A stretch of DNA of 38,367 nucleotides, from sequence record OM816836.1. One strand, written 5' to 3'. The notes under the pieces were generated by a model. That model was not told the origin of the DNA. It saw only the letters and a list, made by a program, of their open reading frames with translations, and did no database searches. The translations under genes and the position numbers were made by a program. Shown here in pieces: positions 1-38,367 of the stretch. This DNA is from Klebsiella phage vB_KpnP_BUCT711. Each line of letters begins with the position of its first letter. Within the stretch, counting starts at the first letter, position 1.

Positions 1-33
1 CTTTTAGGTAATAATACCATGCCACCAGCGATG

Positions 34-363
34 TTACATGATCGGAATATCATCATCACTCACCCACCCGGCCCGGTTTATCAGGTAGGTAACGACACCC
101 CGCACTTCAACATCGTCCAGGGCTTCCCCTTCCAGCGCCTCACCATCATCAGTGATCAGCGCCTGCCCACGGACGACAGCGAATTCAGTTTTCCCGGCAT
201 ATGCGATAAGGACATGATCACCCTGCGTTGGCCTGCGGCAGACATCGACGATGGCATAACCGGCGGCAGTCTCCAGGGCGCGACAGTTGGCGTCATACTG
301 ACAAAGGCGGGAAACGGTTAGCGTTTGCTCAACGTAGTCTGCGGCAGGTGATGGAAAACCCAT
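34..363 (-). CDS. UmuD'-like S24-peptidase-fold protein; catalytic Ser/Lys apparently missing; starts at the position where mature UmuD' begins
   Basis: Starts M-GFPSPAADYVEQ, identical to the UmuD segment just after its Cys24/Gly25 cleavage site. C-terminal blocks QGDHVLIAYAGKTEF and VRGVVTYLINR align with the LexA/UmuD beta-core. No G-D-S-M serine motif, and K replaced in FAVVRG. SD GAGGT 6 nt upstream of ATG at 363; the longer track start at 408 has no RBS. Confidence 0.7.
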   Translation of the reverse strand: MGFPSPAADYVEQTLTVSRLCQYDANCRALETAAGYAIVDVCRRPTQGDHVLIAYAGKTEFAVVRGQALITDDGEALEGEALDDVEVRGVVTYLINRAGWVSDDDIPIM

Positions 364-381
364 GATGACCTCACATAAAAA

Positions 382-401
382 TACTGTATATTTAAACAGT
401 A
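382..401. promoter_or_regulatory. LexA (SOS) box TACTGTATATTTAAACAGTA upstream of the UmuD'-like gene
   Basis: CTGT(384-387)-N8-ACAG(396-399), a perfect match to the enterobacterial LexA consensus taCTGT(at)4ACAGta. Lies between a -35-like TTGACT (minus strand, 419-424) and the RBS. Confidence 0.75.
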
Positions 402-438
402 TAATCATGTGAGGATTTAGTCAATATGACGTGACATG

Positions 439-777
439 TCACAGCGGTAGTTTCGTTTCGTGCCAGCCGTACATCACCCAGCATGCGGCTTCTCCTGAGT
501 GCGGGCAGGATGCCACCGGCAGTTGATCGCCGCACTTGCCGCAGCGGCGTTTGCTGATGGCGTTAATCCTACCGCGCACCCGGGCGTCATCCTGGCGGAT
601 CAGCAGCGCGATGTACTCGGCCATTTCGTAGGGATCACGACCAGGGCGCCGGGCGGCGCAGTTCCGCGCCAGCATCTCCTGCTCCTGTTCATCCAGCACC
701 AGTTCAATTTTGCGCTCACCGGCGGCGGACTGCCGCGCGCGCTGCGCGGCTTTGCGTTCTGCGGGGGATTTAGGCAC
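439..777 (-). CDS. hypothetical protein with C-terminal Cys/His cluster; GTG start
   Basis: 112-aa ORF; GTG start with SD GAGGTGA 4-5 nt upstream; 8-nt overlap with upstream gene; C-term CGKCG...CPH. Confidence 0.5.
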   Translation of the reverse strand: MPKSPAERKAAQRARQSAAGERKIELVLDEQEQEMLARNCAARRPGRDPYEMAEYIALLIRQDDARVRGRINAISKRRCGKCGDQLPVASCPHSGEAACWVMYGWHETKLPL

Positions 778-4209: not shown

Positions 4210-4224
4210 TTACCTTATTGGTAA
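4210..4224. promoter_or_regulatory. operator-like palindrome TTACCttattGGTAA
   Basis: Perfect TTACC-N5-GGTAA 6 bp upstream of the DUF1064 start codon. Confidence 0.6.
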
Positions 4225-4271
4225 TTTATAACCATAAACGGATCAATATCAATAGTCTTGCGCATATTTTA

Positions 4272-4286
4272 TTACCTTTTTGGTAA
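4272..4286. promoter_or_regulatory. operator-like palindrome TTACCtttttGGTAA
   Basis: Perfect site; identical 15-mer to the sites at 6402 and 34570. Confidence 0.6.
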
Positions 4287-6099: not shown

Positions 6100-6333
6100 T
6101 TAACGTTCGTGGAACCAGAGGACCAGGTCGGATTTTGCGGAGATCCACTTACGGGATTTGCAGGCTTTAAACAGTCTTTCTAACAGAGGCTTACGTGGAA
6201 TTCTTCTACGGCCAGTCAGGTGAACCTGAATGTAGTGGCTGGTCGTGCCGGCGTCACTTGCGAACTCTTCTCGCTCAGCCGGCGAGAGGTCGAGCCAGCA
6301 GCGTTTGAAGTCAAATTTTTGCACATCGCTCAT
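6100..6333 (-). CDS. Cro/YdaS-like HTH DNA-binding protein (first gene of leftward early operon)
   Basis: 77 aa from ATG at 6333 (MSDVQKFDF...); HTH-like EFASDAGTTSHYIQVHLTGRRRIP; divergent from the repressor across the operator cluster. Confidence 0.6.
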   Translation of the reverse strand: MSDVQKFDFKRCWLDLSPAEREEFASDAGTTSHYIQVHLTGRRRIPRKPLLERLFKACKSRKWISAKSDLVLWFHER

Positions 6334-6371
6334 ATTTTTTAGTCCCGGACTAACTTTAGACAGCCTGATTA

Positions 6372-6386
6372 TTACCAATCTGGTGT
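6372..6386. promoter_or_regulatory. imperfect operator TTACCaatctGGTgt
   Basis: In the divergent immunity intergenic region; left half plus extension ATTATTACC conserved. Confidence 0.45.
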
Positions 6387-6401: not shown

Positions 6402-6416
6402 TTACCTTTTTGGTAA
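6402..6416. promoter_or_regulatory. operator TTACCtttttGGTAA
   Basis: Perfect palindrome in the divergent cro/repressor intergenic region. Confidence 0.7.
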
Positions 6417-6418
6417 GT

Positions 6419-6433
6419 TTACCTTTATGGTAA
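6419..6433. promoter_or_regulatory. operator TTACCtttatGGTAA
   Basis: Perfect palindrome, centre 17 bp from the 6402 site (tandem operators). Confidence 0.7.
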
Positions 6434-6486: not shown

Positions 6487-7068
6487 ATGAAAAGCATCTA
6501 CGACATAAGGCGCGACAACCTCAACGAGATAATCCGGAAGGATTTCGATAACACGCAACTCCGGTTTGCCGAGAGAATCAAAAAATCAGCTAACCTCGTT
6601 AACAGGTGGAGCAAGGGAACAAAAAATATCGGCGCTAACGCGGCACGCGAGATCGAGTCGTTCGCCGGGAAAGGTCGGTTCTGGCTGGATATCGACCATC
6701 TGTCAGATACCCCGACGCTGCCGGAGATTATCGACCCGCAGGAATGGAGTGTGGAAAAACAGGCAGCGTTTACCCTGGGTGTATGGATGGGTCAGCATTC
6801 GGATCTGAACTCAGAGAAAAAGGTTTCGGAAGCGGCCGGCATCGGCCAGGCGACCGTAAATCGCATCCTGAACTGCGAAGGCTCCACCAGCATTGGCGTA
6901 CTGTCGGCTATCGCCAGGGCGTTCGGCCGCGATGCATATGAGCTGATCCTGCCGCCTGGAAATGCTGGTCTGATTGACTATGACCACCATGAATACGCCG
7001 GGCTGCCGCAGGAAGAGAAAAACAAGATCGCCGCCTTCATCAAGTTCATCGTCAGCCAGAACCAGTAA
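6487..7068 (+). CDS. prophage repressor candidate with two XRE-type HTH domains and no S24 peptidase domain
   Basis: HTH1 QLRFAERIKKSANLVNRWSKG; HTH2 KVSEAAGIGQATVNRILNCEG. Sits in the cI position, divergent from the cro-like gene, flanked by operator clusters. Weak or absent SD (possibly leaderless). Confidence 0.65.
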   Translation: MKSIYDIRRDNLNEIIRKDFDNTQLRFAERIKKSANLVNRWSKGTKNIGANAAREIESFAGKGRFWLDIDHLSDTPTLPEIIDPQEWSVEKQAAFTLGVWMGQHSDLNSEKKVSEAAGIGQATVNRILNCEGSTSIGVLSAIARAFGRDAYELILPPGNAGLIDYDHHEYAGLPQEEKNKIAAFIKFIVSQNQ

Positions 7069-7123: not shown

Positions 7124-7138
7124 TTACCAAAATGGTAA
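7124..7138. promoter_or_regulatory. operator TTACCaaaatGGTAA
   Basis: Perfect site upstream of the -35 of the rightward (PL-like) promoter. Confidence 0.65.
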
Positions 7139-7159
7139 ACTTTTCCTCATCAAATCTAT

Positions 7160-7188
7160 TGACACAACCATAAATTGATCAGATTATT
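7160..7188 (+). promoter_or_regulatory. sigma70-like promoter for the plus-strand recombination operon
   Basis: -35 TTGACA (7160-7165), 17-bp spacer, -10 GATTAT (7183-7188); overlapped by the operator at 7187-7201. Confidence 0.5.
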
Positions 7189-7201
7189 ACCTTAACGGTA
7201 A
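7187..7201. promoter_or_regulatory. operator TTACCttaacGGTAA
   Basis: Perfect site overlapping the -10/+1 of the promoter above. Confidence 0.65.
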
Positions 7202-11327: not shown

Positions 11328-12578
11328 CTATTGTTCATTCATCCACTTTTCAAATGCAGACGGGGAGAACGGCACCAGGTCGTAATGCTCCCCGTTTATC
11401 CATGCATCAACCATATTTGCCCACTGCTGCAGCATGTAGGCCCGCTGCCGGGAATACTCGGCCTTGTTGTAAACCGCCCTCACGCCCTTCTGTTCATGCG
11501 CAAGCGCCTTCTCTATCCAGTCTGACGGGAATCCCGCTTCATGCAAAAGCGTGCTCGCTGTGCGCCGCAGGTCGTGCACCGTGAGAGGTTGCAGGCTCTC
11601 CCCGGCATCCGCTGCCGCAGCAACCGCGCGATCGATGACTGAGTTCAGAGCGGCATTGGATAGCGGCTTACTGGTGCTGTAGCGACCTGGCAACAGATAA
11701 TCACTCCCGCCGGCGCACATCTGCAGGCCTATCATCAGATCCTGCGCCTGAGGCGGCAGGTAGATGACGTGCGACCGGCTCCCCTTCATCCTGTCAGATG
11801 GGATCGTCCAGGTTCCTTTGCTGAAATCCACCTCTTTCCACGTCGCCATGATGAACTCGGTTTTGCGCACCATCGTGATCAGGATGAGCTTCACAGCCAG
11901 CTTTAAGGTTGGCAAAGTGCTGACGGTATCGAGCGACCTGAACAGCACGCCGATTTCTTCAGGCTGCAGGCAACGGTCACGCGGTTTAAACATGGCGATC
12001 GCTGAAGGTTTGATATCTGCGGCCGGGTTGAATAACCCGTGCCCGCGGTCATTGGCGTACCGGTAAACGCTGCTGATGATTTCACGCGCCTGCACCGCCG
12101 TCGCACGTCCGCCGCGCTCGACTATGCGATCGCAAAGATCACGCACCATAGGGGTCGTTATCTCGGACATCATTTTGTTTCCGAGAACAGGCAAAATATC
12201 CCGGTCGATTACTGATTGCTTCATAGCCCGCGTGCTGTCAGCCAGGACCACATGTTTCATGTAGGCGTCGGTATGTACCGTAAATGTTTCGGCGCCGCGG
12301 ATCCGCTTGATACCGTCACGCTTCGCTGCAGCCGGCGACTGGCCTGCGTTCAGCAGTTTTTTAGCGGCTATCAGCTCATCCCTGGCTTCAGCCAGTGTGA
12401 TACCGTCACGACCATACTGACCGATAACCAGCGTCTCCCGGCGGCCGTTGATGCGGTAATCGTAACGAAACGAGATGGTGCCTGAGATCAGCACGGCTAC
12501 ATACAGACCGTCGCGATCTGAGACCTTGTACATTTTGCCCTGCGGTTTCAGGTTTTTTAGTTTGGTATCGGTAAGCAC
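11328..12578 (-). CDS. int: tyrosine integrase (P4-like, arm-binding N-domain)
   Basis: MLTDTKLKNLKP...GLYVAV N-term (DUF4102-like); HDLRRTASTLL and LAHEQKGVRAVYNKAEY catalytic motifs. Confidence 0.9.
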   Translation of the reverse strand: MLTDTKLKNLKPQGKMYKVSDRDGLYVAVLISGTISFRYDYRINGRRETLVIGQYGRDGITLAEARDELIAAKKLLNAGQSPAAAKRDGIKRIRGAETFTVHTDAYMKHVVLADSTRAMKQSVIDRDILPVLGNKMMSEITTPMVRDLCDRIVERGGRATAVQAREIISSVYRYANDRGHGLFNPAADIKPSAIAMFKPRDRCLQPEEIGVLFRSLDTVSTLPTLKLAVKLILITMVRKTEFIMATWKEVDFSKGTWTIPSDRMKGSRSHVIYLPPQAQDLMIGLQMCAGGSDYLLPGRYSTSKPLSNAALNSVIDRAVAAAADAGESLQPLTVHDLRRTASTLLHEAGFPSDWIEKALAHEQKGVRAVYNKAEYSRQRAYMLQQWANMVDAWINGEHYDLVPFSPSAFEKWMNEQ

Positions 12579-12619
12579 ATTTCACCCGTGATGCATCATT
12601 TGTCTGACGGTACGAGAGT

Positions 12620-12634
12620 ATACCGTAATGGTAA
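12620..12634. promoter_or_regulatory. imperfect operator aTACCgtaatGGTAA overlapping ATACCGT repeats upstream of int
   Basis: 14 of 15 match to the genome-wide motif; embedded in 3 direct ATACCGT repeats. Confidence 0.35.
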
Positions 12635-12694
12635 TACCGTCAGGTATACCGTCAAAAAATGTGAGATAGAGTGAATAGTTTTGAAGTGATATAA

Positions 12695-12729
12695 AGAAAA
12701 ACCCTCTGTAAAAACAGAGGGTTGCATTT
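12695..12729 (-). terminator. rho-independent terminator ending the lysis cassette
   Basis: Stem CCCTCTG/CAGAGGG (7 bp), loop taaaaa, followed on the minus strand by TTTTTCTTT. Confidence 0.6.
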
Positions 12730-12861
12730 CAATTTGAGTAGATATGATTAGCTATAAGGTAGCCGTTAATCATTCCCACTCAATTATTTACAGGCATCGT
12801 AACCAATTGACTGAAAACAACATTTTTAAAAACAAAATCCAAGATACCGTTTTATATACCG

Positions 12862-13362
12862 TCACCGGGAAATTGTGCCCCGCTTCGTCAGTTCGTCATA
12901 TTGCCTTTCGCAGACCCTTCCGGCTTCAGCTGCCCGGTCAGCGTATTCTGCCAATTGCCGGTTTCGTTCGAGAGATTTTTCGAGCACGTCGGCAAGCAAA
13001 ACTCCGGTGTCTGCGGCTGACGTCCCAGCGCCGACAGTGGCGTTATACTGCCTGAGCTGCTCACGGATGGCAACGAGCTGCTGCTGCAGCCGGCCAGCGC
13101 GAGCGGCAGCATCAAGAGCATCATTGCGCGCCTGGTCGATCCTCTGCTGCGCTTCTCGTTCATTGGTTGCTTTCTCCTGTTCGTCATGTTGACGGGCTTT
13201 CTCATCTTCTGCTTTGCGGTCAGCCTTCGCCTGCGCATACCCGGCGTCGTACTGTCTGTCACCGTGAATATTCCAGACTACAACGCCGCCGGCCACCAGA
13301 GCAGCAAGCATCGACACGATAAGCAACTGTTTCCAGTATGCTTTCACGAATGCCGTGATCAT
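12862..13362 (-). CDS. i-spanin (Rz-like)
   Basis: N-terminal TM (LLIVSMLAALVAGGVVVW) then a long coiled coil; ATGA-coupled to the endolysin. Confidence 0.7.
   Translation of the reverse strand: MITAFVKAYWKQLLIVSMLAALVAGGVVVWNIHGDRQYDAGYAQAKADRKAEDEKARQHDEQEKATNEREAQQRIDQARNDALDAAARAGRLQQQLVAIREQLRQYNATVGAGTSAADTGVLLADVLEKSLERNRQLAEYADRAAEAGRVCERQYDELTKRGTISR
12888..13124 (-). CDS. o-spanin (Rz1-like lipoprotein) embedded in the +1 frame of Rz
   Basis: MMLLMLPLALAGCSSS lipobox (LAGC) followed by a Pro/Ser-rich periplasmic segment; wholly inside Rz. Confidence 0.6.
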   Translation of the reverse strand: MMLLMLPLALAGCSSSSLPSVSSSGSITPLSALGRQPQTPEFCLPTCSKNLSNETGNWQNTLTGQLKPEGSAKGNMTN

Positions 13363-16964: not shown

Positions 16965-16979
16965 TTACCATTAAGGTAA
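16965..16979. promoter_or_regulatory. operator TTACCattaaGGTAA in the tailspike/moron divergent region
   Basis: Perfect site. Confidence 0.6.
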
Positions 16980-17005: not shown

Positions 17006-17025
17006 ACCTTTTGATATATGTATAT
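17006..17025. promoter_or_regulatory. near-consensus LexA box TATGTATATATATACAGTAT
   Basis: ATGT-N8-ACAG with an (AT)4 spacer; 19 of 20 match to the E. coli consensus; about 30 bp upstream of ORF 17054. Confidence 0.5.
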
Positions 17026-17053
17026 ATATACAGTATTTATCGGAGTAATCCTA

Positions 17054-17314
17054 ATGCCAGAGCGGTACCAGTATCCTGTCGACGAAGGTTTTGCAGATCG
17101 TATTCACACCCCGGAAGGGGTCAGATCCCTGGTTGTAAAATCACAGCTGATGGAGTTGCTCAGGGAAATGGAGCGAGACGGCCACGATGTCAGCGGTGCG
17201 GCGGCGGAACTGGTGGCACTGGTTAACTATGTGACAAGTTCGCAGTTGTCGATGCGGGAGCTGCAAACACACCTGGATTTCTGCGCAATGCAGTTGCGGC
17301 AGCAACTCAGATAG
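17054..17314 (+). CDS. hypothetical small protein in immI-equivalent position (candidate antirepressor)
   Basis: 87 aa from ATG at 17054 (MPERYQYPVDEGF...), SD GGAGT; LexA-like box and an operator upstream. Confidence 0.5.
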   Translation: MPERYQYPVDEGFADRIHTPEGVRSLVVKSQLMELLREMERDGHDVSGAAAELVALVNYVTSSQLSMRELQTHLDFCAMQLRQQLR

Positions 17315-17376: not shown

Positions 17377-17391
17377 TTACCGTATTGGTAA
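17377..17391. promoter_or_regulatory. operator TTACCgtattGGTAA
   Basis: Perfect site upstream of ORF 17443. Confidence 0.6.
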
Positions 17392-19025: not shown

Positions 19026-21500
19026 TTATTCCGGCGTTACGTCCTGCGGTCGCCACCAGTATGTCTGGTTGAACTGTTTCTTGGATCTCTGCTCTACCTT
19101 GCGCAGATATCCAGGAGAAAAGTATTCCTGAAGCTGGTTAAATATCATATGGTCAAGCGCAGCTTTTGCATACCAAAGATTGGCACCGGGGATAAGGCCC
19201 TTGCCGAGTTTAACCAGATCACCACCTGTCTGTTCCGGCTTTCCTTCAACGGCATTAAGCGGGATGCCCTGCGCCAGCTTAACCACGTCATCAACCAGAC
19301 CAGCCACAGGCCCCAGCATTGACGCCAGCGCGCCACCACCGTAGCGCGTATGGTCAGAAAGCAGGAAGTCACCATAGAGGCCAAGACCACCACCTTTCAG
19401 CAGCGCGCCGAGCCAGAATTTACCAGCATCCTTCCCGACCATCTCTCGGGGATTCCTCCCGGATGCCATGTCGTTTAGCTGCTGAGACAGCGCGCCGAGC
19501 ATCGTGGTGCTGGCGAGGAATGCGGCGATATAAGCGGCCCGGCCGCCAGCGGAAGGCATGCCCATTGCACGCGTCCAGTGCCGCAGCACAACAGAGATCG
19601 GAAACGATTTGAATAGGAAAACCGAGCGGGTTAACTCGCCTTTCCATGTTCCGCGCTGCAGGCCACCACCAGTAAAAAGCTGCTCACGCGCGCCAGGCGT
19701 AATCACCGCCATGTCGACTTCTTCAGATACTGCGGCCAGCAGCCGGCGCATGGCCTCAAACCTTACTCGTTCCGGGAGCCCTAAGTGCATTACAGCAGCA
19801 TCAGGGATCCGCATAATGCTTTCCGGAGTGAGCATGGTCGTATTGCCGTTACCCCAGTCCTCCTGTTGCGCCAGCTTCCATACACTGAAGTCCTGCTCGG
19901 TGATTCCTTTGCTTTTCAGTATGCGAAAATCGCTGTCGTCAAGGCTCCGCAGATCAGGGGCCCTGCTGACCACTTCCCCAAGGCTTCCCATCATCGTCAC
20001 GCCGTAGGCACGTTTGTGCGCATCCGTCCATGCTGTCAGGCCGCTAGCGCGCATCACCGCCGTTGCCGCCCAGCGGGAAACCGACGGTCCCATATTGTCC
20101 ATCGCCCAGCGGTTAACGCTGCCGAGCAACGATTCCATAGCCAGCCCAGCGCGACGGGCGCGGGCAAGCTCCATGCGGTTCGCCGGGTTCATGGCCTCAA
20201 GCTGGTTCATAAATAGTCGGTTCATCGGGATGTTCGCTACCTTCGCCGACATATACATCGTGCCCAGGTCAGAGAATGAAGCCAGCAGCGCGGAACCAAG
20301 TCGGCTCGCCACCATCCAGTTTCGGATGTTGTCCGACCATCGTGCGATGTGCGGATTAGCGATCGGCTGCGTCTTCCCGGCGATAAAGTTGTAAAGGTTC
20401 TCGGTACTGTTGGCCAAGCGCTTAATCCTGCCAGTGCGCTCAGGGTTGGCAGTGGCCTGTTCAGCCGTAACCTCGTCCAGGATAGAGCGGAAAACGTGAT
20501 CGGGGTTCGGGCCGTATGTTTCAACCAGCGCGATATCTTTGCTGATACCTTCAAGGTGCCCGACCATTACTTCCCACAGAGAGCGATCGCCATATTCTCG
20601 CTGATACTCAAGGTAGGAGTCTGCGTCTTTGAAGTGGATCTGACGGGATGCATTACCGCGATTAGAGCGCGCGCCGGAAATGCGCATGCCGGTATCGCTT
20701 AATTTGTTCAGCCCGCCGGTGGCGATGGTGTTGTATGCCTCGCCCAGGAAGGTTGTCAACTCAGCATCGCTCATCAGCTGGCCGTCATCTTTGATGTAGT
20801 ACTTGCGATCCAGTTTGTCGATGACGTCGCTAACCCACTTATCCTGCGGAACCCTGCCGACTTTCTCCATCGAGTGGTGCTGAGGGATGCCCCAGTTTTC
20901 CAGGTAGCCTATATCACCACCAGCGTCATTGAATCGCTGGCGAAGCAATTCAGTAACGCCAGCCCATGCTTTTGCGCCCTTCTTAGCCCTGACGTTGCCA
21001 GTGTCCTGCCCGCGCATCTCGTAAACCAGATCGCGCACGCTGGCCTCGTCCTCAAACAGGTGGAAGAATCTCGGGTCTACCGCTTCAAATGCTTCCTGAA
21101 TCTGGCTTAGTGCATAGTCGCGTGTGGCTTTGCCGCGTGATTCTACCGACAGGAAATTTGATTTCCCGTCAGCGTGAAAGGCGATGGTCCGGTTAAGCGC
21201 CTCAAGCTTGCCGTCTTTCCCCTGGTAGGTCTTTATGAAGGCGTCGAGCCGCTGCCTGGCTGCGATGGTGAGTGCCACGCGGCGCTTCTTCAGCGCAGCT
21301 TCGTTAGTGAGTTCGTTCGCTGCTAACTGCCCGGCTCGGCGCAGCCGTTCGGCGTCAGTCATCGCCCGCCACGAAGCCGGATCATTGCGGGCCAGTTGCC
21401 GCATGTTCCGGTAAATACGGTCTTCAATATTCTTGATTTCCTGCTGCGTGAGTCGGCGGCTTGCGGCCTGCTGCACGGCGTTAATACATTCCTGACGCAT
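19026..21500 (-). CDS. internal virion/ejection protein (T7 gp16-like position)
   Basis: 824 aa, last of three giant genes preceding the tail fiber. Confidence 0.6.
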   Translation of the reverse strand: MRQECINAVQQAASRRLTQQEIKNIEDRIYRNMRQLARNDPASWRAMTDAERLRRAGQLAANELTNEAALKKRRVALTIAARQRLDAFIKTYQGKDGKLEALNRTIAFHADGKSNFLSVESRGKATRDYALSQIQEAFEAVDPRFFHLFEDEASVRDLVYEMRGQDTGNVRAKKGAKAWAGVTELLRQRFNDAGGDIGYLENWGIPQHHSMEKVGRVPQDKWVSDVIDKLDRKYYIKDDGQLMSDAELTTFLGEAYNTIATGGLNKLSDTGMRISGARSNRGNASRQIHFKDADSYLEYQREYGDRSLWEVMVGHLEGISKDIALVETYGPNPDHVFRSILDEVTAEQATANPERTGRIKRLANSTENLYNFIAGKTQPIANPHIARWSDNIRNWMVASRLGSALLASFSDLGTMYMSAKVANIPMNRLFMNQLEAMNPANRMELARARRAGLAMESLLGSVNRWAMDNMGPSVSRWAATAVMRASGLTAWTDAHKRAYGVTMMGSLGEVVSRAPDLRSLDDSDFRILKSKGITEQDFSVWKLAQQEDWGNGNTTMLTPESIMRIPDAAVMHLGLPERVRFEAMRRLLAAVSEEVDMAVITPGAREQLFTGGGLQRGTWKGELTRSVFLFKSFPISVVLRHWTRAMGMPSAGGRAAYIAAFLASTTMLGALSQQLNDMASGRNPREMVGKDAGKFWLGALLKGGGLGLYGDFLLSDHTRYGGGALASMLGPVAGLVDDVVKLAQGIPLNAVEGKPEQTGGDLVKLGKGLIPGANLWYAKAALDHMIFNQLQEYFSPGYLRKVEQRSKKQFNQTYWWRPQDVTPE

Positions 21501-32289: not shown

Positions 32290-32595
32290 CTATTCCTCGC
32301 TGGCCTCTTTGGCCATTGCCAGATACTGATCGGGACACGCTTCCATCACGTCGGAAAAGACTTTCAGTCCCGTGTTACGTTTTCCTTCGGCGAAGGCTGC
32401 CGAGAGCGCCTCACCGGTATAAGTCGTACGCCACACTCCAGCCTGCTCAATCAGGCGCCAGATGAAACGGCGGCCGTGTTCTGTCTCGCAGATGAGGCGC
32501 AGGTCATTAAGTTCGTTCTCGCGCCGTAACTGCTGCCTTTTGAGCTCATCTGCTGCCAGTTCTTCACGCTCTTCTTCGCTCAGGTAATCAGTCAT
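32290..32595 (-). CDS. hypothetical head-morphogenesis protein
   Basis: 101 aa; coupled to the portal. Confidence 0.45.
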   Translation of the reverse strand: MTDYLSEEEREELAADELKRQQLRRENELNDLRLICETEHGRRFIWRLIEQAGVWRTTYTGEALSAAFAEGKRNTGLKVFSDVMEACPDQYLAMAKEASEE

Positions 32596-34271
32596 TGCGT
32601 CACCGCCGGCTGCTGAGCAGCATCAGAGAGGGTTTTTAACAGGCTAGGGTCAGCGGTGTTGGTATCGCTCAGGGTCTTAGCGGTTGCGCCAGCTTGCTGG
32701 GCCATAGCCATCATCTGCTGCTGTTGTTCCATTTGAGCGCGCTGTTCGCGCGTGGCTTGCACCTCATCATCAGAGTTAACGATCGTGGCCGGGACGCCGA
32801 GCATATTTCCGTACTCGTCAATCGTCTGGTCGATATTGAGTTTGTCGAGCGCCGCAGGATTGGCTTTTGCAAGATTCCCAACAAAGCCAACAAAGCGCTC
32901 AACGCTGCTGATCCCTATGGATTTCTGGGCCTGTGCCAAAATGGAGACATATTCAACTTTCAGAGGAGTGCCCTGCAGTTCTTCCGGTGGCTCAGGAAAG
33001 AGGTTGCGGCGCGCCATGATGTTGAATGTGCGATCAACGAAAGGATCAAGGAATTCATCATTAAGTCGCTCCAGTACTGGACCAAGCTGCAGGAGTTTCT
33101 CATCCTGCATTGCGGCCACAGCCTCCACTGGCATGCTCCTGGTGTTGATGGTGCTGAACAGGTTAAACAGGTCAGAGAAGAAGCAGGCTTCAATCATTTG
33201 GCGGTCATCAGCAATGCTGCCGAGCATGTCATTAAGCTGAGGGCTGACGGCGTAAGCCGGACGCACTAGCTTGGTAGCGTCAACCTCATCAACATAAGTA
33301 ACGCCGCCAGGGGCAAGGTTGATCAGCTTATTTTTAAGACCTGTCGGGGCCACCATTGGCGGGTTAACAAGCTTATCGATCGCGTTAGCTTTGCGAATTT
33401 GCTCCAACTGCAGCGCCTTACCAGTACCGAGCGCCATCATTCCCGGGCAGTTACTCCCGTAAACGTCTTCCCCGTTAATCTCCCAGCGCGGTGAAAGGAT
33501 CGGCGGCTCATCAAAACCAGCCTCACGAAGGAGCTTGTCACCGTCTCCGGACAACTCGAAATACACCGATTTGAATGCCTTGTTGCGGGAGTTCAGCTTG
33601 CCATTCACACGATCGATATTGGGCTCTGTCAGATGGACCACATCGAACCATGCTTCATAGTTCGCGTTATCCCAGGCGCCGCGCACGGCGTTACTGACGT
33701 TGTCCAGGCCAAACTGCATAACAATCTGGCGGGCAGTCATGGAGAAAACGCGATACGTGGTATCGACTGACAAACGATGCGAGTTTGACAGGTAGTAACT
33801 TCCGATCGGCAGAGGATGAGTACGAATCACATCTTCGTCGTCTTCGAGAACCGCCATAGCCGCGGTACCAAAAACACCAAGGTGCCGGTAGATAATCGGC
33901 AGGGACTGGTAGACGTTAGAGCGGTTCATGACGTCGTTCATCCTGGTCATGACCACATCAAGCCAGCGTTTTACCGGTCCATATTGCATCATCTCCGGAT
34001 CCGGCGTTGCCAGCTTAAACCATGGGCGGGTTGGGCTGGTGATACCTGACAGCATGCCTGATTGCAGAGTGCGGGCAGCTTTAGAGGCGGTAGGGTCAAC
34101 GATGCGGGTATTACGCTTGCTGCCGTTGTTTCTCTCCGTCGTAAGAAAGCGCGTGCTGCGCGGATCGATAAATTCCGCCAGTTCGCGCCAGTGCTCCTCA
34201 AAGCTGGTGCGCTCATTTTTGAGCTGCCCCAGGTGTTTGAGGTAATGCTGTTTCGGAGAGAGTTCGGCCAT
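32592..34271 (-). CDS. portal protein
   Basis: 559 aa, precedes the scaffold and capsid genes; size and position fit a portal. Confidence 0.75.
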   Translation of the reverse strand: MAELSPKQHYLKHLGQLKNERTSFEEHWRELAEFIDPRSTRFLTTERNNGSKRNTRIVDPTASKAARTLQSGMLSGITSPTRPWFKLATPDPEMMQYGPVKRWLDVVMTRMNDVMNRSNVYQSLPIIYRHLGVFGTAAMAVLEDDEDVIRTHPLPIGSYYLSNSHRLSVDTTYRVFSMTARQIVMQFGLDNVSNAVRGAWDNANYEAWFDVVHLTEPNIDRVNGKLNSRNKAFKSVYFELSGDGDKLLREAGFDEPPILSPRWEINGEDVYGSNCPGMMALGTGKALQLEQIRKANAIDKLVNPPMVAPTGLKNKLINLAPGGVTYVDEVDATKLVRPAYAVSPQLNDMLGSIADDRQMIEACFFSDLFNLFSTINTRSMPVEAVAAMQDEKLLQLGPVLERLNDEFLDPFVDRTFNIMARRNLFPEPPEELQGTPLKVEYVSILAQAQKSIGISSVERFVGFVGNLAKANPAALDKLNIDQTIDEYGNMLGVPATIVNSDDEVQATREQRAQMEQQQQMMAMAQQAGATAKTLSDTNTADPSLLKTLSDAAQQPAVTQ

Positions 34272-34569: not shown

Positions 34570-34584
34570 TTACCTTTTTGGTAA
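34570..34584. promoter_or_regulatory. operator TTACCtttttGGTAA between portal-side genes and the tRNA
   Basis: Perfect site, identical to 4272 and 6402; a conserved half-site ATTATTACC lies at 34504-34512. Confidence 0.6.
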
Positions 34585-34899: not shown

Positions 34900-34976
34900 G
34901 TGGCATTAGCTCAGTCGGATAGAGCAACCGCCTTCTAAGCGGTTGGTCGCAGGTTCGAATCCTGCATGCTGCGCCA
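34900..34976 (+). tRNA. tRNA-Arg (anticodon UCU), argU-like, phage-encoded
   Basis: Cloverleaf: acceptor GTGGCAT/ATGCTGC (two G-U pairs); D-arm TAGCTCAGTCGGATAGAGCA; anticodon stem-loop CCGCC-tTCTaa-GCGG(TT); T-arm GCAGGTTCGAATCCTGC; discriminator G then CCA. Confidence 0.8.
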
Positions 34977-35498: not shown

Positions 35499-36290
35499 AT
35501 GTTAGAATCACTTAAAGAATTCACGACATCGACATTCAACACAGCAATGAATCGCGTTAAGAACCCTGCATTCGGTGCTTTCGCAATTTCATGGTGCGCA
35601 TTTAACTGGAAGCAAATACTTTATTTGTTTTTTGCTGATAACGGAATTTATTACAAAATAGAATATATTTCTCAAAATAGCAGTTGGTGGAGCGTAATTA
35701 TTTTACCTGCATTCTCGTCACTTGTTTTATGTGTTGGTTTACCATGGGTTAATAATGCTATAACGAAATGGCAAAGCAAGCCTCTTGACAATGCAGATTC
35801 AATTGAGAATTTCAAGCAGGCGCGCATGATTCAACGCTCCACGCGATTGCAGCGCCTGAAGGCCAAGCATGACGTGACTTACGACAGAGTTAAAACTGGC
35901 GCTGAAAAAGATATCCAATCAATGAAAGAACAAATAACTGAATCTCAGGCAAGAATGGGCGAGCTTACCAGTGAACGAGACGAGTTACGTAAAAAAATAA
36001 ATTTTTTAAATAAAGAAATTCAAAACCTTAAATCAAATATTGAGGACGCAAATTCAATTATCACTGAGAAGAATGAGCGCATTAGCCAGCTTGAAAACTC
36101 AAGAGAATCTTTATTGGCACAATTTAATCTTGACAATGCATCACAACGCACTCCGCTTGCAACGGCTCGAATATCTCCAACAGGTAGCAATATCGATATC
36201 TTAAATAGAAAAATTGACTCTTTATCAAGAAATGGCTACGACTTAAATAAAGAGCTTGCGATAAAAAATTCGGAAAACAAAAAAAATTAG
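35499..36290 (+). CDS. membrane-anchored coiled-coil protein (AT-rich moron; exclusion/abortive-infection candidate)
   Basis: Two N-terminal TM helices then about 170 aa of heptad-like K/E/N-rich sequence; markedly AT-rich versus the genome; own promoter and terminator; stop overlaps the TerL stop convergently. Confidence 0.55.
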   Translation: MLESLKEFTTSTFNTAMNRVKNPAFGAFAISWCAFNWKQILYLFFADNGIYYKIEYISQNSSWWSVIILPAFSSLVLCVGLPWVNNAITKWQSKPLDNADSIENFKQARMIQRSTRLQRLKAKHDVTYDRVKTGAEKDIQSMKEQITESQARMGELTSERDELRKKINFLNKEIQNLKSNIEDANSIITEKNERISQLENSRESLLAQFNLDNASQRTPLATARISPTGSNIDILNRKIDSLSRNGYDLNKELAIKNSENKKN

Positions 36291-37762
36291 GCCCACGGGT
36301 CATACTCGCTGATCACGTTGGGCTGCTTTCCGCCGGCAGCAGGGAAATCTGAACGCTTTGCCACTGGATAGGCGAATGTCAGAAGCAGCGCATCGCCCTT
36401 GCCCGGCGACCGGCCCAAACGCTCTTTGATATCTTCCTTCGGTTCCATGACGATCTTGCCGTCCACCCTCACCTTGTACTCTGCCGCGGACAGGTCGTCC
36501 GCCGTCTCCTGGTCATCCAGCGCGCCGCCGAGCTTGAGCCACGTCTTACAGGCGTTGAACATCTCACCGCGCTTATTCAGCATCTGTGGGTCTGACGATG
36601 CGCCGCCGAACGGCACAAGCTGCCAGGTGCGACCCCAGCCGTCACCGATGGACTTCAGCCCGGTACCGTAGCCGAAGTCGATAAACACCGCGTCAGCCTG
36701 GTACTGATCCTCAAAATCAGCGATACGCTTCGCCATAATCAGATCGTCGGTGGTCTTGTTGCCGGTCCACAGTACTTTGCTGTGCAGCCCCTGGCGGAGA
36801 TAAATCACTGCGTCATCCACGCCGGAATATGCCGGGTCGACGCCGATTATCCGCGGGGCGTGCGCCACCTGCGCAGCGGTCACAACGCGCTTCATCGCCT
36901 CGTCTGTCAGACCGGTAGGGATGAACTGCAGCTCTGATGCATCAGGGAAGATCCCGCGCACGCGGACCTTCACAAAGTCGCTGTCCTCGCCGTAGTCGTC
37001 CACCCATTTCTGCAGCTGCTGCTTGTTGGTGCCTTCGACGGTGCGGCTGTCGATCTGCGCGCACTTCCAGCGGTGCTTGTATTTGCGGAAGCACTCCCGG
37101 AATCGCCCGGTGTTGCGCGTTGGGTTACCGAACGCTACCCAGATAATTTCTGTGTCCTCGTCCGTCAGCGCGCCCTCGGCAACCTCCCACACCAGATCGG
37201 CAATATTGGAGGCCTCATCGAATACGACGATGATGCGCTTACGCTCGTTGTGGAGGCCGGCGAACGCTTCGGTATTGTGCTCAGACCAGGGAATAGCATC
37301 GGCGCGCCAGCGTTTGTCGTGGCCTGGATCGTTGCTGTACATCGCCGTAGCGGTGCAGGTGAACCATTCTTTCGTGATAGCCAGGTTCGACCATTTGATG
37401 ATTTCCGGCCAGGTCTTCGTGCGCAGCTGGTTGTCGGTGTTAGCGGTCACCACCACCTTGCAGTCCTCGCACGTCGACATGCCCCAGTTAATCAGCATCG
37501 AGATGAAAGCAGATTTACCGATACCGTGACCGGATGCGCGGGCCAGCATCAGCGGCTGATGACGCGTCGCGGGGTTCTGCAGGTGATCGCGAATCTCGCG
37601 GAATGCATCAGCCTGCCACTGTCGCGGCCCGGAGGCGTGTGCCAGTTCGGTGCCATCCTCACCCCACGGGAACGCATACAGCGCATAGCCAAGCGGGTCA
37701 TGGGTGAAGCTGGCGATATCGTCGATCAGCTGTTCTTCCGGGGATAAAGCGGCGTCTGTCAC
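36287..37762 (-). CDS. terminase large subunit (GTG start)
   Basis: Walker A ARASGHGIGKS; 491 aa; GTGA overlap with the TerS stop; SD GGGTGGTGA. Confidence 0.9.
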   Translation of the reverse strand: MTDAALSPEEQLIDDIASFTHDPLGYALYAFPWGEDGTELAHASGPRQWQADAFREIRDHLQNPATRHQPLMLARASGHGIGKSAFISMLINWGMSTCEDCKVVVTANTDNQLRTKTWPEIIKWSNLAITKEWFTCTATAMYSNDPGHDKRWRADAIPWSEHNTEAFAGLHNERKRIIVVFDEASNIADLVWEVAEGALTDEDTEIIWVAFGNPTRNTGRFRECFRKYKHRWKCAQIDSRTVEGTNKQQLQKWVDDYGEDSDFVKVRVRGIFPDASELQFIPTGLTDEAMKRVVTAAQVAHAPRIIGVDPAYSGVDDAVIYLRQGLHSKVLWTGNKTTDDLIMAKRIADFEDQYQADAVFIDFGYGTGLKSIGDGWGRTWQLVPFGGASSDPQMLNKRGEMFNACKTWLKLGGALDDQETADDLSAAEYKVRVDGKIVMEPKEDIKERLGRSPGKGDALLLTFAYPVAKRSDFPAAGGKQPNVISEYDPWA

Positions 37763-38343
37763 TGGTCACCACCCTGACGCTCTTTCAGGCGGCGCCGGGC
37801 GGCGGCCATGCGGTCGGCAATGGTGACGTTCACGTTAACTTCCATGCGCTCTTTGAATGCCATCACGTCAACATGCTTACCAATCAGCTCGAGGTTTTTC
37901 ACCTTGTCTGGCCATTTGATTTTCTTGAGGATGGTCTCTATCGAGGTCTCATCCATGTTCATGATGGTTGAGGACAGGTCAAACCCGCTTAGCGTGGTTC
38001 GCCAGATTTTCGGCCACTCGCGGATAGGCTTCAGGCTTCCGTCATCGTTCAGGATATCCAGCACATCCATCTGGTCGATTTCCACCAGGCGCAGCAGCAC
38101 GTAATCGGCGCTGACGCGCAGGCGCTTGTTGCGCTCATCCATGAGCTCAGCGATTCGTTTCTGGATACGCTCATCACGCATCATCGTGCTGGCTTTGACG
38201 TGGGCAGACTTTGGGGAGAACCCGGCATTGATGGCCGCCTGTGTCTGATTTTCAGGGCATTTAACATACTCCTGGGCGTAGGCTTCCTGCATCACCGTCA
38301 ACGGTTTGTACTGAGTTGATTTGCGCTTCGGATCCTTTGGCAT
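37759..38343 (-). CDS. terminase small subunit
   Basis: 194 aa from ATG 38343 (MPKDPKRK...), SD GGGGTG; HTH-like N-terminal region; immediately upstream of TerL. Confidence 0.7.
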   Translation of the reverse strand: MPKDPKRKSTQYKPLTVMQEAYAQEYVKCPENQTQAAINAGFSPKSAHVKASTMMRDERIQKRIAELMDERNKRLRVSADYVLLRLVEIDQMDVLDILNDDGSLKPIREWPKIWRTTLSGFDLSSTIMNMDETSIETILKKIKWPDKVKNLELIGKHVDVMAFKERMEVNVNVTIADRMAAARRRLKERQGGDQ

Positions 38344-38367
38344 GGTAAACACCCCGAAAATAATTAC

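What the first reader, a model, noticed from the sequence alone, without database searches (positions are those of the whole stretch)
1..15. Window ends reconstitute an operator, indicating a circularly permuted complete phage genome
The last bases (…AAAATAATTAC, 38357-38367) joined to the first bases (CTTTTAGGTAATAATACC, 1-18) give ATAATTACCTTTTAGGTAATAAT. That is a perfect TTACC-TTTTA-GGTAA site with the conserved flanks. It lies just upstream of TerS on the minus strand and downstream of the UmuD'-like gene. Together with phage genes filling the window edge to edge and int sitting internally, the window is best read as a whole circular or terminally redundant phage genome. The arbitrary linearisation point falls in the late-operon regulatory region, so it is not a chromosomal prophage with host flanks.
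Basis: seen in the sequence. Interest (0 to 1): 0.55.

Follow-up and report, generated by a model that had tools for sequence, protein, structure and literature searches.

The report
Repressor operator split by genome linearisation
The two ends of this window join to form one repressor-binding site, because the window is a complete epsilon15-like Klebsiella phage genome cut open just upstream of its packaging genes; this is an ordinary, already annotated feature of that phage genus.

Summary
Joining the window's end to its start gives ...AATAATTAC|CTTTTAGGTAATAAT, a perfect TTACC-N5-GGTAA palindrome. It is the tenth such site on the circle; 0.02 are expected by chance in the linear window.

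The same junction sequence is uninterrupted in 26 independent records: 24 IMG/VR contigs, Klebsiella phage Kp4865-1 and prophage ST11-OXA245phi3.2. In each, terS lies on one side and the UmuD'-like gene on the other.

The window is a Uetakevirus (epsilon15-like) temperate podophage genome:
- Its attP is intact and internal, next to int.
- Related prophages are instead bounded by int/guaA on one side and the lysis genes on the other.
- No host DNA sits at either end.

The site is the positional orthologue of the "repressor" binding site annotated at 12..27 of the epsilon15 GenBank record, just upstream of terS. The window also encodes orthologues of the SPC32H repressor Rep (E=2.5e-76 to PDB 5D50) and its antirepressor Ant. 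A conserved extended -10 promoter (TGnTAnTAT) abuts the operator.

Two caveats remain:
- The cut point follows the genus convention of starting records upstream of terS, so it is probably not random.
- Headful packaging and circular permutation are inferred, not shown.

Novelty and interest are low.

The parts
38364..38367 (.). Left part (TTAC) of the split operator TTAC|CTTTTAGGTAA
   Evidence: The site is contiguous in 26 related records.
1..11 (.). Right part (CTTTTAGGTAA) of the split operator. It is the orthologue of the epsilon15 'protein_bind repressor' site at 12..27.
11..19 (-). Predicted extended -10 promoter of terS. It reads TGGTATTAT on the minus strand, and its last T is the first T of the operator.
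   Evidence: TGnTAnTAT abuts the operator in 9 of 10 distinct upstream contexts across about 106 loci. This is an inference from consensus, and the generic -35/-10 scan does not call it.
37759..38343 (-). terS, the small terminase subunit. The start is taken as the ATG at 38343; the mechanical ORF extends to a GTG at 38352.
   Evidence: PF03592 E=2e-28; phrog_51.
36287..37762 (-). terL, the large terminase subunit.
   Evidence: phrog_2 E=9e-52. It is 93.7% identical to epsilon15 TerL, 54% to Pseudomonas phage Ab31 TerL, and distantly similar to P1 PacB.
34..363 (-). UmuD'-like gene of 109 aa starting MGFPSPAADYVEQ. It is the last gene before the operator.
   Evidence: phrog_3469 E=6e-47; UmuD 8GMT E=2.8e-4. 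It is annotated as UmuD-like in MK416010.1.
383..402 (.). Consensus LexA (SOS) box TACTGTATATTTAAACAGTA in the promoter of the UmuD'-like gene.
6487..7068 (+). rep, the prophage repressor and the presumed binder of the TTACC-N5-GGTAA sites.
   Evidence: E=2.5e-76 over the full length to SPC32H Rep, PDB 5D50. It is 65% identical to the epsilon15 repressor.
17054..17314 (+). ant, the antirepressor. A LexA-like box ATGTATATATATACAG lies at 17018-17033 just upstream.
   Evidence: E=4.8e-33 to 5D50 chain E; sequence.
4210..4286 (.). Operator pair at 4210-4224 and 4272-4286.
   Evidence: The epsilon15 counterparts are at 35907 and 35969.
6402..6433 (.). Operator pair at 6402-6416 and 6419-6433, between rep and the divergent cro-like gene.
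   Evidence: The epsilon15 counterparts are at 33341 and 33358.
7124..7201 (.). Operator pair at 7124-7138 and 7187-7201. The second abuts the early-left promoter TTGACA-17-GATTAT.
   Evidence: The epsilon15 counterparts are at 32479-32632.
16965..16979 (.). Operator between the tailspike gene and ant.
   Evidence: The epsilon15 counterpart is at 19895-19911.
17377..17391 (.). Operator abutting the promoter TTGACG-16-TAAGAT, downstream of ant.
34570..34584 (.). Operator upstream of the gp3/portal operon.
   Evidence: The epsilon15 counterpart is at 2931-2947.
11328..12578 (-). Tyrosine integrase, internal to the window.
   Evidence: PF00589 and the Arm-DNA-binding domain.
12768..12784 (-). attP core ATTGAGTGGGAATGATT, intact, between int and the lysis genes.
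   Evidence: core as published for ZX5 (PMC9782041).

Best explanation
**What the window is.** It is one complete unit-length genome of a temperate epsilon15-like (Uetakevirus) podophage of Klebsiella. It is written as the reverse complement of the epsilon15 reference and opened 24 nt upstream of the terS start codon. That cut passes through a 15-bp palindromic operator, TTAC|CTTTTAGGTAA, so the operator appears only when the ends are joined.

**How the site most likely works.** The operator is one of ten TTACC-N5-GGTAA sites. They are most likely bound by the phage's SPC32H/epsilon15-type repressor Rep, an HTH protein that acts as a tetramer. At terS the operator's first base is also the last base of a conserved extended -10 promoter (TG-n-TAnTAT). 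The predicted transcription start therefore falls inside the operator. Rep bound there would keep RNA polymerase off the packaging-operon promoter in the lysogen.

**How repression is lifted.** After DNA damage, LexA cleavage would allow expression of the antirepressor Ant, which dismantles Rep tetramers and frees all ten operators together.

**Shown:**
- contiguity of the ends in relatives;
- an intact internal attP;
- enrichment of the motif;
- positional orthology to the annotated epsilon15 site;
- presence of Rep and Ant orthologues and of LexA boxes.

**Inferred:**
- that Rep binds this particular site;
- that TGGTATTAT is the active terS promoter;
- that virion DNA is headful-packaged, terminally redundant and circularly permuted.
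For: **Circle and completeness**
- The junction is contiguous in OK490417.1 and MK416010.1 and in 24 IMG/VR contigs with both flanks matching.
- Nothing is missing or duplicated at the join.
- attP is intact, with its two arms matching the two ends of prophage MK422448.1.
- IMG/VR contig UViG_2938795008_000001, a close relative, is the prophage permutation running from int to the lysis genes, with the junction internal.
- Gene order is colinear with epsilon15 from terS to the gp49-like gene.

**Operator identity**
- The epsilon15 record annotates 'protein_bind, repressor, lysogeny' at 12..27 (TTACCAAAACGGTAAT), 20 nt before terS. Six further such sites have positional counterparts in the window.
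- Of 45 distinct terS-upstream sequences from 79 related loci, 43 carry a perfect TTACC-N5-GGTAA. The half-sites are invariant and the A/T-rich spacers vary.
- Rep matches 5D50 at E=2.5e-76 and is 65% identical to the epsilon15 repressor, with the first ~70 residues the best-conserved stretch.
- Ant matches 5D50 chain E at E=4.8e-33, with a LexA-like box upstream.
- Rep is described as a DNA-binding tetramer disassembled by tetrameric Ant (PMC9638917, citing Kim et al. 2016).

**Promoter**
- TGnTAnTAT abuts the operator in 9 of 10 distinct contexts.
- The same arrangement, with a -10 hexamer ending on the operator's first T, occurs at 7187 (TTGACA-17-GATTAT) and at 17377 (TTGACG-16-TAAGAT).

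**Packaging**
- TerS belongs to PF03592.
- TerL is distantly similar to the headful terminase P1 PacB and 54% identical to Ab31 TerL.
- Ab31 virion DNA gives a circular restriction map with no detectable ends, and its position 1 was set by convention upstream of terS (PMC3974807).
- Records of the genus are opened at many different points.
Against: - Rep binding to this site has not been tested here. The primary papers (Kropinski 2007; Kim & Ryu 2013; Kim et al. 2016) were not available in the library, so whether any of these operators was footprinted rests on the GenBank annotation and on my memory.
- The generic sigma-70 scan finds no -35/-10 promoter facing terS. It finds only an antisense TTGGCA-16-AATAAT that is not conserved in epsilon15.
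- Not all ten operators abut a recognisable -10 element.
- TerL has no Pfam or PDB sequence hit, and its only experimentally typed relative is distant (P1 PacB, about 24% identity over half the protein).
- The source record and its reads are not available.
Confidence: 0.88

Rival explanations
1. The window is an integrated prophage excised by software, with its ends at or near host DNA, and the palindrome formed by joining the ends is a coincidence.
For: From the sequence alone, the far end only has to supply TTAC, which has a chance of about 3e-3. Many relatives in the databases are prophage cut-outs.
Against: Prophages of this group end at int/guaA and at the lysis genes. The window has those two arms fused as an intact attP at 12.6-12.9 kb. 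Its ends are contiguous in 26 records. No host gene lies at either edge.
Confidence: 0.01
2. The cut point is a genuine physical end of virion DNA, such as a pac cleavage or cos-type terminus next to terS, rather than a convention or an assembly artefact.
For: Several genus records start within about 40-220 nt upstream of terS. A uniformly random cut would fall inside one of the ten operators only 0.36% of the time. pac sites commonly lie in or near terS (general knowledge).
Against: Other isolates of the genus are opened at unrelated positions: ZX5 (a circular record), Kp4865-1, TL-2011b, PAS61 and HEMP4. Ab31, which has a related TerL, shows no detectable ends, and its authors state that position 1 was assigned by comparison. 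The window has no terminal repeat or overhang signature. The exact start differs between records: epsilon15 starts 11 nt before its operator, whereas the window is cut inside its own.
Confidence: 0.08
3. The TTACC-N5-GGTAA sites are bound mainly by another phage regulator rather than by Rep. Candidates are the Cro-like protein encoded at 6100-6378(-) and the gp49-like 'transcriptional regulator' at 439-777(-). The terS site would then be an activator or modulator site.
For: In lambdoid switches Cro shares operators with the repressor (general knowledge). The gp49-like regulator (phrog_536) is encoded immediately upstream of the terS promoter region, which lacks a -35 element.
Against: The epsilon15 record assigns the sites to the repressor. 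The sites sit on or next to -10 elements, which is a repressing geometry. Half-site identity across Salmonella, Escherichia and Klebsiella phages goes with a conserved Rep N-terminal region. Shared use by Cro would add to Rep binding rather than replace it.
Confidence: 0.07

Closest known systems
Salmonella phage epsilon15 repressor-binding site upstream of terS (GenBank AY150271.2, protein_bind 12..27)
   Same: It has the same palindrome class (TTACC-N5-GGTAA, extended ATTACC...GGTAAT). It holds the same position immediately 5' of terS, with the same abutting TGnTAnTAT element. It belongs to the same genome-wide set of sites at the early-left, rep/cro, replication, portal and tailspike promoter regions, and the repressor is orthologous.
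   Different: The spacer differs (TAAAA against AAAAC). In epsilon15 a rho-independent terminator precedes the site and a second, imperfect site follows it. In the window an SOS-controlled UmuD'-like gene replaces the terminator and the second site has decayed. In the window the site is split by the linearisation point.
Salmonella phage SPC32H Rep/Ant/LexA lysis-lysogeny switch (PDB 5D50, 5D4Z)
   Same: The window has full-length orthologues of Rep (E=2.5e-76) and Ant (E=4.8e-33), with a LexA-type box in front of ant. The expected mechanism is a Rep tetramer on palindromic operators, removed by tetrameric Ant (PMC9638917).
   Different: The host is Klebsiella. Rep is about 65% identical to epsilon15 Rep, and its alignment to SPC32H Rep looks similar. 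There is an additional LexA-controlled UmuD'-like gene. No binding data exist for this phage.
Phage P1 C1 repressor with many dispersed operators
   Same: A single prophage repressor acts at numerous operators scattered round the genome, rather than at only two early promoters as in lambda (general knowledge).
   Different: The protein and the operator sequence are unrelated. P1 operators are asymmetric, and P1 late promoters use the Lpa activator. This is an analogy only.
Circularly closing phage assemblies of headful (pac) phages such as Pseudomonas phage Ab31
   Same: The TerL is related (54% identity). Ab31 virion DNA maps as a circle and its position 1 was placed by convention just upstream of terS.
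   Different: Packaging has not been examined for the window's phage.

Membership tests
epsilon15-type (Uetakevirus) Rep operator | A 15-17 bp palindrome (A)TTACC-N5-GGTAA(T) with an A/T-rich spacer. | tested here: met
   TTACCTTTTAGGTAA forms across the junction. It is one of ten perfect sites, against 0.02 expected.
epsilon15-type (Uetakevirus) Rep operator | Positional orthology to an annotated repressor site (epsilon15 12..27, upstream of terS). | tested here: met
   Of 45 distinct terS-upstream regions in relatives, 43 carry a perfect site.
epsilon15-type (Uetakevirus) Rep operator | The cognate repressor is encoded in the same genome. | tested here: met
   Window 6487-7068(+) matches 5D50 Rep at E=2.5e-76 and is 65% identical to the epsilon15 repressor.
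epsilon15-type (Uetakevirus) Rep operator | Rep physically binds the site and represses the adjacent promoter. | not testable with these tools
   This needs EMSA, footprinting or reporter assays.
Complete phage genome that closes into a circle (not a prophage cut-out) | The two record ends are adjacent in independent related sequences, with nothing missing. | tested here: met
   The 27-mer across the junction is exact in 24 IMG/VR contigs. About 390 nt of flank on each side match in 26 records. Coordinates are adjacent in OK490417.1 and MK416010.1.
Complete phage genome that closes into a circle (not a prophage cut-out) | attP is intact and internal, with no host genes at the edges. | tested here: met
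   (both prophage arms fused, core at 12768-12784). Searches give the prophage boundaries. The edge genes are the UmuD'-like gene and terS.
Headful (pac) packaging with terminal redundancy and circular permutation | The terminase clusters with experimentally typed headful terminases. | tested here: inconclusive
   TerS belongs to PF03592. TerL is only distantly similar to P1 PacB (about 24% over 45-55% of the protein) and 54% identical to Ab31 TerL, whose DNA maps as circular. TerL has no Pfam or PDB sequence hit. No phylogeny was built.
Headful (pac) packaging with terminal redundancy and circular permutation | Virion DNA ends are heterogeneous and the packaged length exceeds unit length. | not testable with these tools
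   This requires reads or virion DNA. The window shows no terminal repeat, which is uninformative for a trimmed assembly.
SPC32H-type Rep/Ant antirepression switch | An Ant orthologue under LexA control. | tested here: met
   Window 17054-17314(+) matches 5D50 chain E at E=4.8e-33. ATGTATATATATACAG, one mismatch from CTGT-N8-ACAG, lies at 17018-17033, 20 nt upstream. LexA binding itself was not tested.

The most novel reading that the evidence does not exclude
In this Klebsiella lineage an SOS-controlled UmuD'-like moron has replaced the rho-independent terminator that insulates the terS promoter from upstream transcription in epsilon15, phiV10 and many relatives. After DNA damage, LexA-derepressed transcription from the moron's promoter could run straight into the packaging operon. 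Rep bound at the junction operator would then act as the only roadblock. This would give late-gene expression a second, Ant-independent SOS input and a roadblock role for the operator, in addition to promoter occlusion.
Probability: 0.1. Interest if true: 0.35.

Novelty: already known. Interest (0 to 1): 0.1.

Why it matters
The main value is in curation.
- The window can be treated as a complete, closable Uetakevirus genome rather than a prophage fragment.
- Features at its edges, namely the terS promoter and operator, must be analysed on the circle.
- The terS regulatory region is separated from terS by the linearisation point, which would mislead any promoter or operator scan run on the linear record.

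Biologically it adds one more lineage in which a single antirepressor-controlled repressor appears to sit directly on the packaging, portal and tailspike promoters. That was already implied by the epsilon15 annotation. No open question is made newly testable.

Tried and rejected
- **Primary papers.** I tried to read Kropinski 2007 (PMID 17825342 / PMC2698709), Kim & Ryu 2013 (PMC3807360) and Kim et al. 2016 (PMC4983836). None is held. Statements about what they showed are therefore limited to what the GenBank record and a citing paper say, or are marked as memory.
- **Representative bacterial genomes.** A scan of genome contigs with the 27-mer found nothing. That collection holds one genome per species, so this is uninformative.
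- **Sigma-70 scan across the contiguous junction.** The scans in L003 and L004 found no terS-facing -35/-10 promoter. They found an antisense TTGGCA-16-AATAAT overlapping the terS start. I rejected it as functional because the spacing is not preserved in epsilon15 and no credible gene follows it. The ORF at 19-321(+) is antisense to the UmuD'-like gene.
- **A shared operator architecture.** I looked for one -10/operator arrangement at all ten sites. Only three (junction, 7187, 17377) show it clearly. The portal-operon site at 34570 does not.
- **Source record.** I searched IMG/VR for the window's own record with a tailspike 40-mer. The only hit is a 38,948-bp prophage-permuted relative at about 94% identity. 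The window itself is neither there nor in the phage collection, where the best matches are 95-98% identical over 66-91%.
- **TerL.** Pfam and PDB sequence searches returned nothing. The packaging type therefore rests on PHROGs, tblastn and one paper on a relative.
- **RNA hairpin.** I considered that the palindrome might act as an RNA hairpin in the 5' UTR. I rejected this without folding it. The stem is only 5 bp, the sites occur in both orientations at promoters across the genome, and a cognate DNA-binding repressor is present.

Full report
**Observation**

The window ends ...GGCATGGTAAACACCCCGAAAATAATTAC and begins CTTTTAGGTAATAATACCATGCC.... Joined, the ends read AATAATTAC|CTTTTAGGTAATAAT. 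This contains a perfect TTACC-N5-GGTAA palindrome, made of bases 38364-38367 plus 1-11.

The motif itself is real. Nine further perfect copies lie in the linear window, at 4210, 4272, 6402, 6419, 7124, 7187, 16965, 17377 and 34570. Dinucleotide shuffles predict 0.02. With up to one mismatch there are 13 copies against 0.59 expected.

The terS start is an ATG at 38343; the mechanical ORF starts at a GTG at 38352.

One correction to the statistics is needed. The window start already holds C-N5-GGTAA, so the other end needs only to supply TTAC. That has a chance of about 3e-3, not about 1e-6. The sequence alone is therefore suggestive, and the case is decided by comparison with other records.

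**Are the two ends really neighbours?**

Yes. In Klebsiella phage Kp4865-1 (OK490417.1), window base 1 aligns to record base 13138 and window base 38367 to base 13139. In prophage ST11-OXA245phi3.2 (MK416010.1) the corresponding bases are 30106 and 30105. The 35-nt sequence CCGAAAATAATTACCTTTTAGGTAATAATACCATG is present uninterrupted in that prophage, between its terS and its 'UmuD' CDS.

The 27-mer spanning the junction occurs exactly in 24 IMG/VR contigs. In all 26 records, about 390 nt on each side match the window's end and start without gaps, mostly at 90-98% identity. Nothing is missing or duplicated at the join, and the window has no terminal direct repeat.

**What the window is**

It is an epsilon15-like (genus Uetakevirus) temperate podophage of Klebsiella. 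It is colinear with Salmonella phage epsilon15 from terS through to the gp49-like gene, but written as the reverse complement.

Related prophages sit at the 3' end of host guaA. They are bounded by int on one side and by the Rz/lysis genes on the other (MK416010.1 and MK422448.1). The IMG/VR contig UViG_2938795008_000001 is the same kind of prophage cut-out, running from int to the lysis genes with the window junction internal.

In the window these two prophage arms are fused. Bases 12401-13000 match the lysis-side end and the int-side end of MK422448.1, overlapping at a core ATTGAGTGGGAATGATT (window 12768-12784). That is the attP/attB core published for Uetakevirus ZX5 at the 3' end of guaA (PMC9782041).

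The window is therefore the excised, replicative or virion form of the genome. It carries an intact internal attP, an internal int (11328-12578), and phage genes at both edges.

**What the site is**

The epsilon15 GenBank record (AY150271.2) annotates seven 'protein_bind: repressor, lysogeny' features. The first, at 12..27 (TTACCAAAACGGTAAT), lies 20 nt before terS (47..643). The junction site is its positional orthologue.

The window's other nine sites also have epsilon15 counterparts. These lie at the portal operon, the tailspike/ant region, the early-left promoter, the rep/cro divergent region and the replication region.

The site is conserved across the group:
- Of 79 related terS loci from IMG/VR, which give 45 distinct upstream sequences, 43 sequences carry a perfect TTACC-N5-GGTAA just upstream of terS.
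- The half-sites are invariant, while the A/T-rich spacers vary (TAAAA, AAAAC, ACAAC, ATAAC, ATAGC).
- One further sequence has a single mismatch, and one has a different palindrome.
- phiV10, ZX5 and TL-2011b show the same site.

The window encodes the matching regulatory proteins:
- The ORF at 6487-7068(+) is a full-length orthologue of the SPC32H repressor Rep. It matches PDB 5D50 at E=2.5e-76 and is 65% identical to the epsilon15 repressor, with the first ~70 residues the best-conserved stretch.
- The ORF at 17054-17314(+) is an orthologue of the SPC32H antirepressor Ant (5D50 chain E, E=4.8e-33).
- A LexA-type box, ATGTATATATATACAG, lies 20 nt upstream of ant.

A citing paper summarises the SPC32H system. 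Rep binds DNA as a tetramer, with the DNA-binding pairs drawn from different dimers, and tetrameric Ant splits it into dimers (PMC9638917). My recollection of Kim & Ryu 2013 and Kim et al. 2016 agrees, and adds that ant is LexA-repressed. I could not open those papers.

**Likely mechanism at terS**

Immediately 5' of the operator, on the terS strand, the sequence TG-n-TAnTAT is conserved. It reads TGGTATTAT in the window (bases 19-11, minus strand), TGTTACTAT in epsilon15 and TGGTACTAT in phiV10. It is present in 9 of 10 distinct contexts across about 106 loci.

This fits an extended -10 promoter, which needs no -35 element. Its last T is the first T of the operator. The predicted start site therefore falls in the operator spacer, and bound Rep would exclude RNA polymerase.

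The same geometry occurs at two other window operators. At 7187 the early-left promoter TTGACA-17-GATTAT ends on the operator, and at 17377 TTGACG-16-TAAGAT does the same.

This part is inference. The generic -35/-10 scan does not call a terS-facing promoter, and other operators, such as 34570, show no such arrangement.

A practical consequence follows. In the linear record the terS promoter (bases 11-19) and most of the operator lie at the opposite end from terS.

**Linearisation point and packaging**

The cut is unlikely to be random, since only 0.36% of positions lie inside an operator. The records for epsilon15, phiV10, SPN1S, SPC32H, Tyrion and E15 all start 40-220 nt upstream of terS. 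The window therefore most likely follows that convention.

Other isolates are opened elsewhere, and ZX5 is deposited as circular.

The evidence on packaging type is indirect:
- TerS belongs to PF03592.
- TerL belongs to phrog_2 and has no Pfam or PDB sequence hit.
- Beyond the genus, TerL's relatives include Pseudomonas phage Ab31 (54% identity) and, distantly, P1 PacB.
- Ab31 virion DNA gives a circular restriction map with no detectable ends, and its authors placed position 1 upstream of terS by comparison (PMC3974807).

Headful packaging with circular permutation is thus the most likely mode, but it is not demonstrated here.

**Comparison and verdict**

The feature is an orthologue of an annotated operator in a described repressor/antirepressor system. 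The 'circularity' is the ordinary property of a complete phage assembly.

The only lineage-specific twist concerns the region just upstream of the operator. An SOS-controlled UmuD'-like gene (34-363, with a consensus LexA box at 383-402) occupies the place of the rho-independent terminator that precedes the operator in epsilon15, phiV10 and many Klebsiella relatives. No terminator is detected between that gene and terS. This leaves open a read-through or roadblock role for the operator.

I rate the finding as confirmed, correctly interpreted, already known in kind, and of low interest.

Noticed in passing
window 34-408 (-), with LexA box at 383-402: This UmuD'-like gene's product probably starts at MGFPSPAADYVEQ, exactly the N-terminus of processed UmuD'. 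The catalytic GDS serine motif is replaced by GYA. The gene sits behind a consensus SOS box (TACTGTATATTTAAACAGTA) that overlaps a TTGACT...TATACT promoter. It resembles the pre-processed UmuD' homologue HumD of phage P1 (from memory). PHROG family 3469 shows that it recurs in phages.
   Followed up: partly
window 1-60 compared with L004 18080-18130 and L001 39646-39672: In epsilon15, phiV10 and many Klebsiella relatives a rho-independent terminator (GCCGCCGACTATGGCGGCTTTGTTTT) lies directly upstream of the terS promoter and operator. In the window's lineage the UmuD'-like gene occupies that place and no terminator is detected, so upstream transcription may read into terS.
   Followed up: partly
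window 17016-17314: An Ant (antirepressor) orthologue of 86 aa lies here, with a one-mismatch LexA box 20 nt upstream. A Rep operator (16965) sits between it and the divergent tailspike gene. Together these make a complete SPC32H-type SOS-to-Ant-to-Rep induction circuit.
   Followed up: yes
window 439-777 (-): This is a homologue of epsilon15 gp49 / phiV10 p55 / N15 gp46, 112 aa, assigned to PHROG 536 'transcriptional regulator'. It is the last conserved early-right gene before terS. It could be a late-gene regulator acting at the -35-less terS promoter.
   Followed up: no
window 34900-34976 (+): A tRNA-Arg (anticodon TCT) lies between terL and the portal operon, on the strand opposite to the flanking late genes. 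Several Uetakevirus records annotate the same tRNA.
   Followed up: no
L086 (IMGVR_UViG_3300031110_000340), upstream of terS: One relative carries CATAACCAAAATGGTATTT in place of TTACC-N5-GGTAA. This may be a heteroimmune operator variant with altered half-sites.
   Followed up: no
L001 189-203 and L031 204-218, compared with window 38344-38360: epsilon15 and phiV10 have a second, imperfect operator 18 nt (centre to centre) downstream of the terS operator. This is the same spacing as the 6402/6419 pair. In the window lineage this second site has decayed, with 4 mismatches.
   Followed up: partly
window 38337-38364 (+): A good sigma-70 consensus match (TTGGCA-16-AATAAT, 10 of 12) lies antisense to terS, overlapping its start codon and running into the operator. 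Its spacing is not conserved in epsilon15, so it is probably fortuitous.
   Followed up: partly
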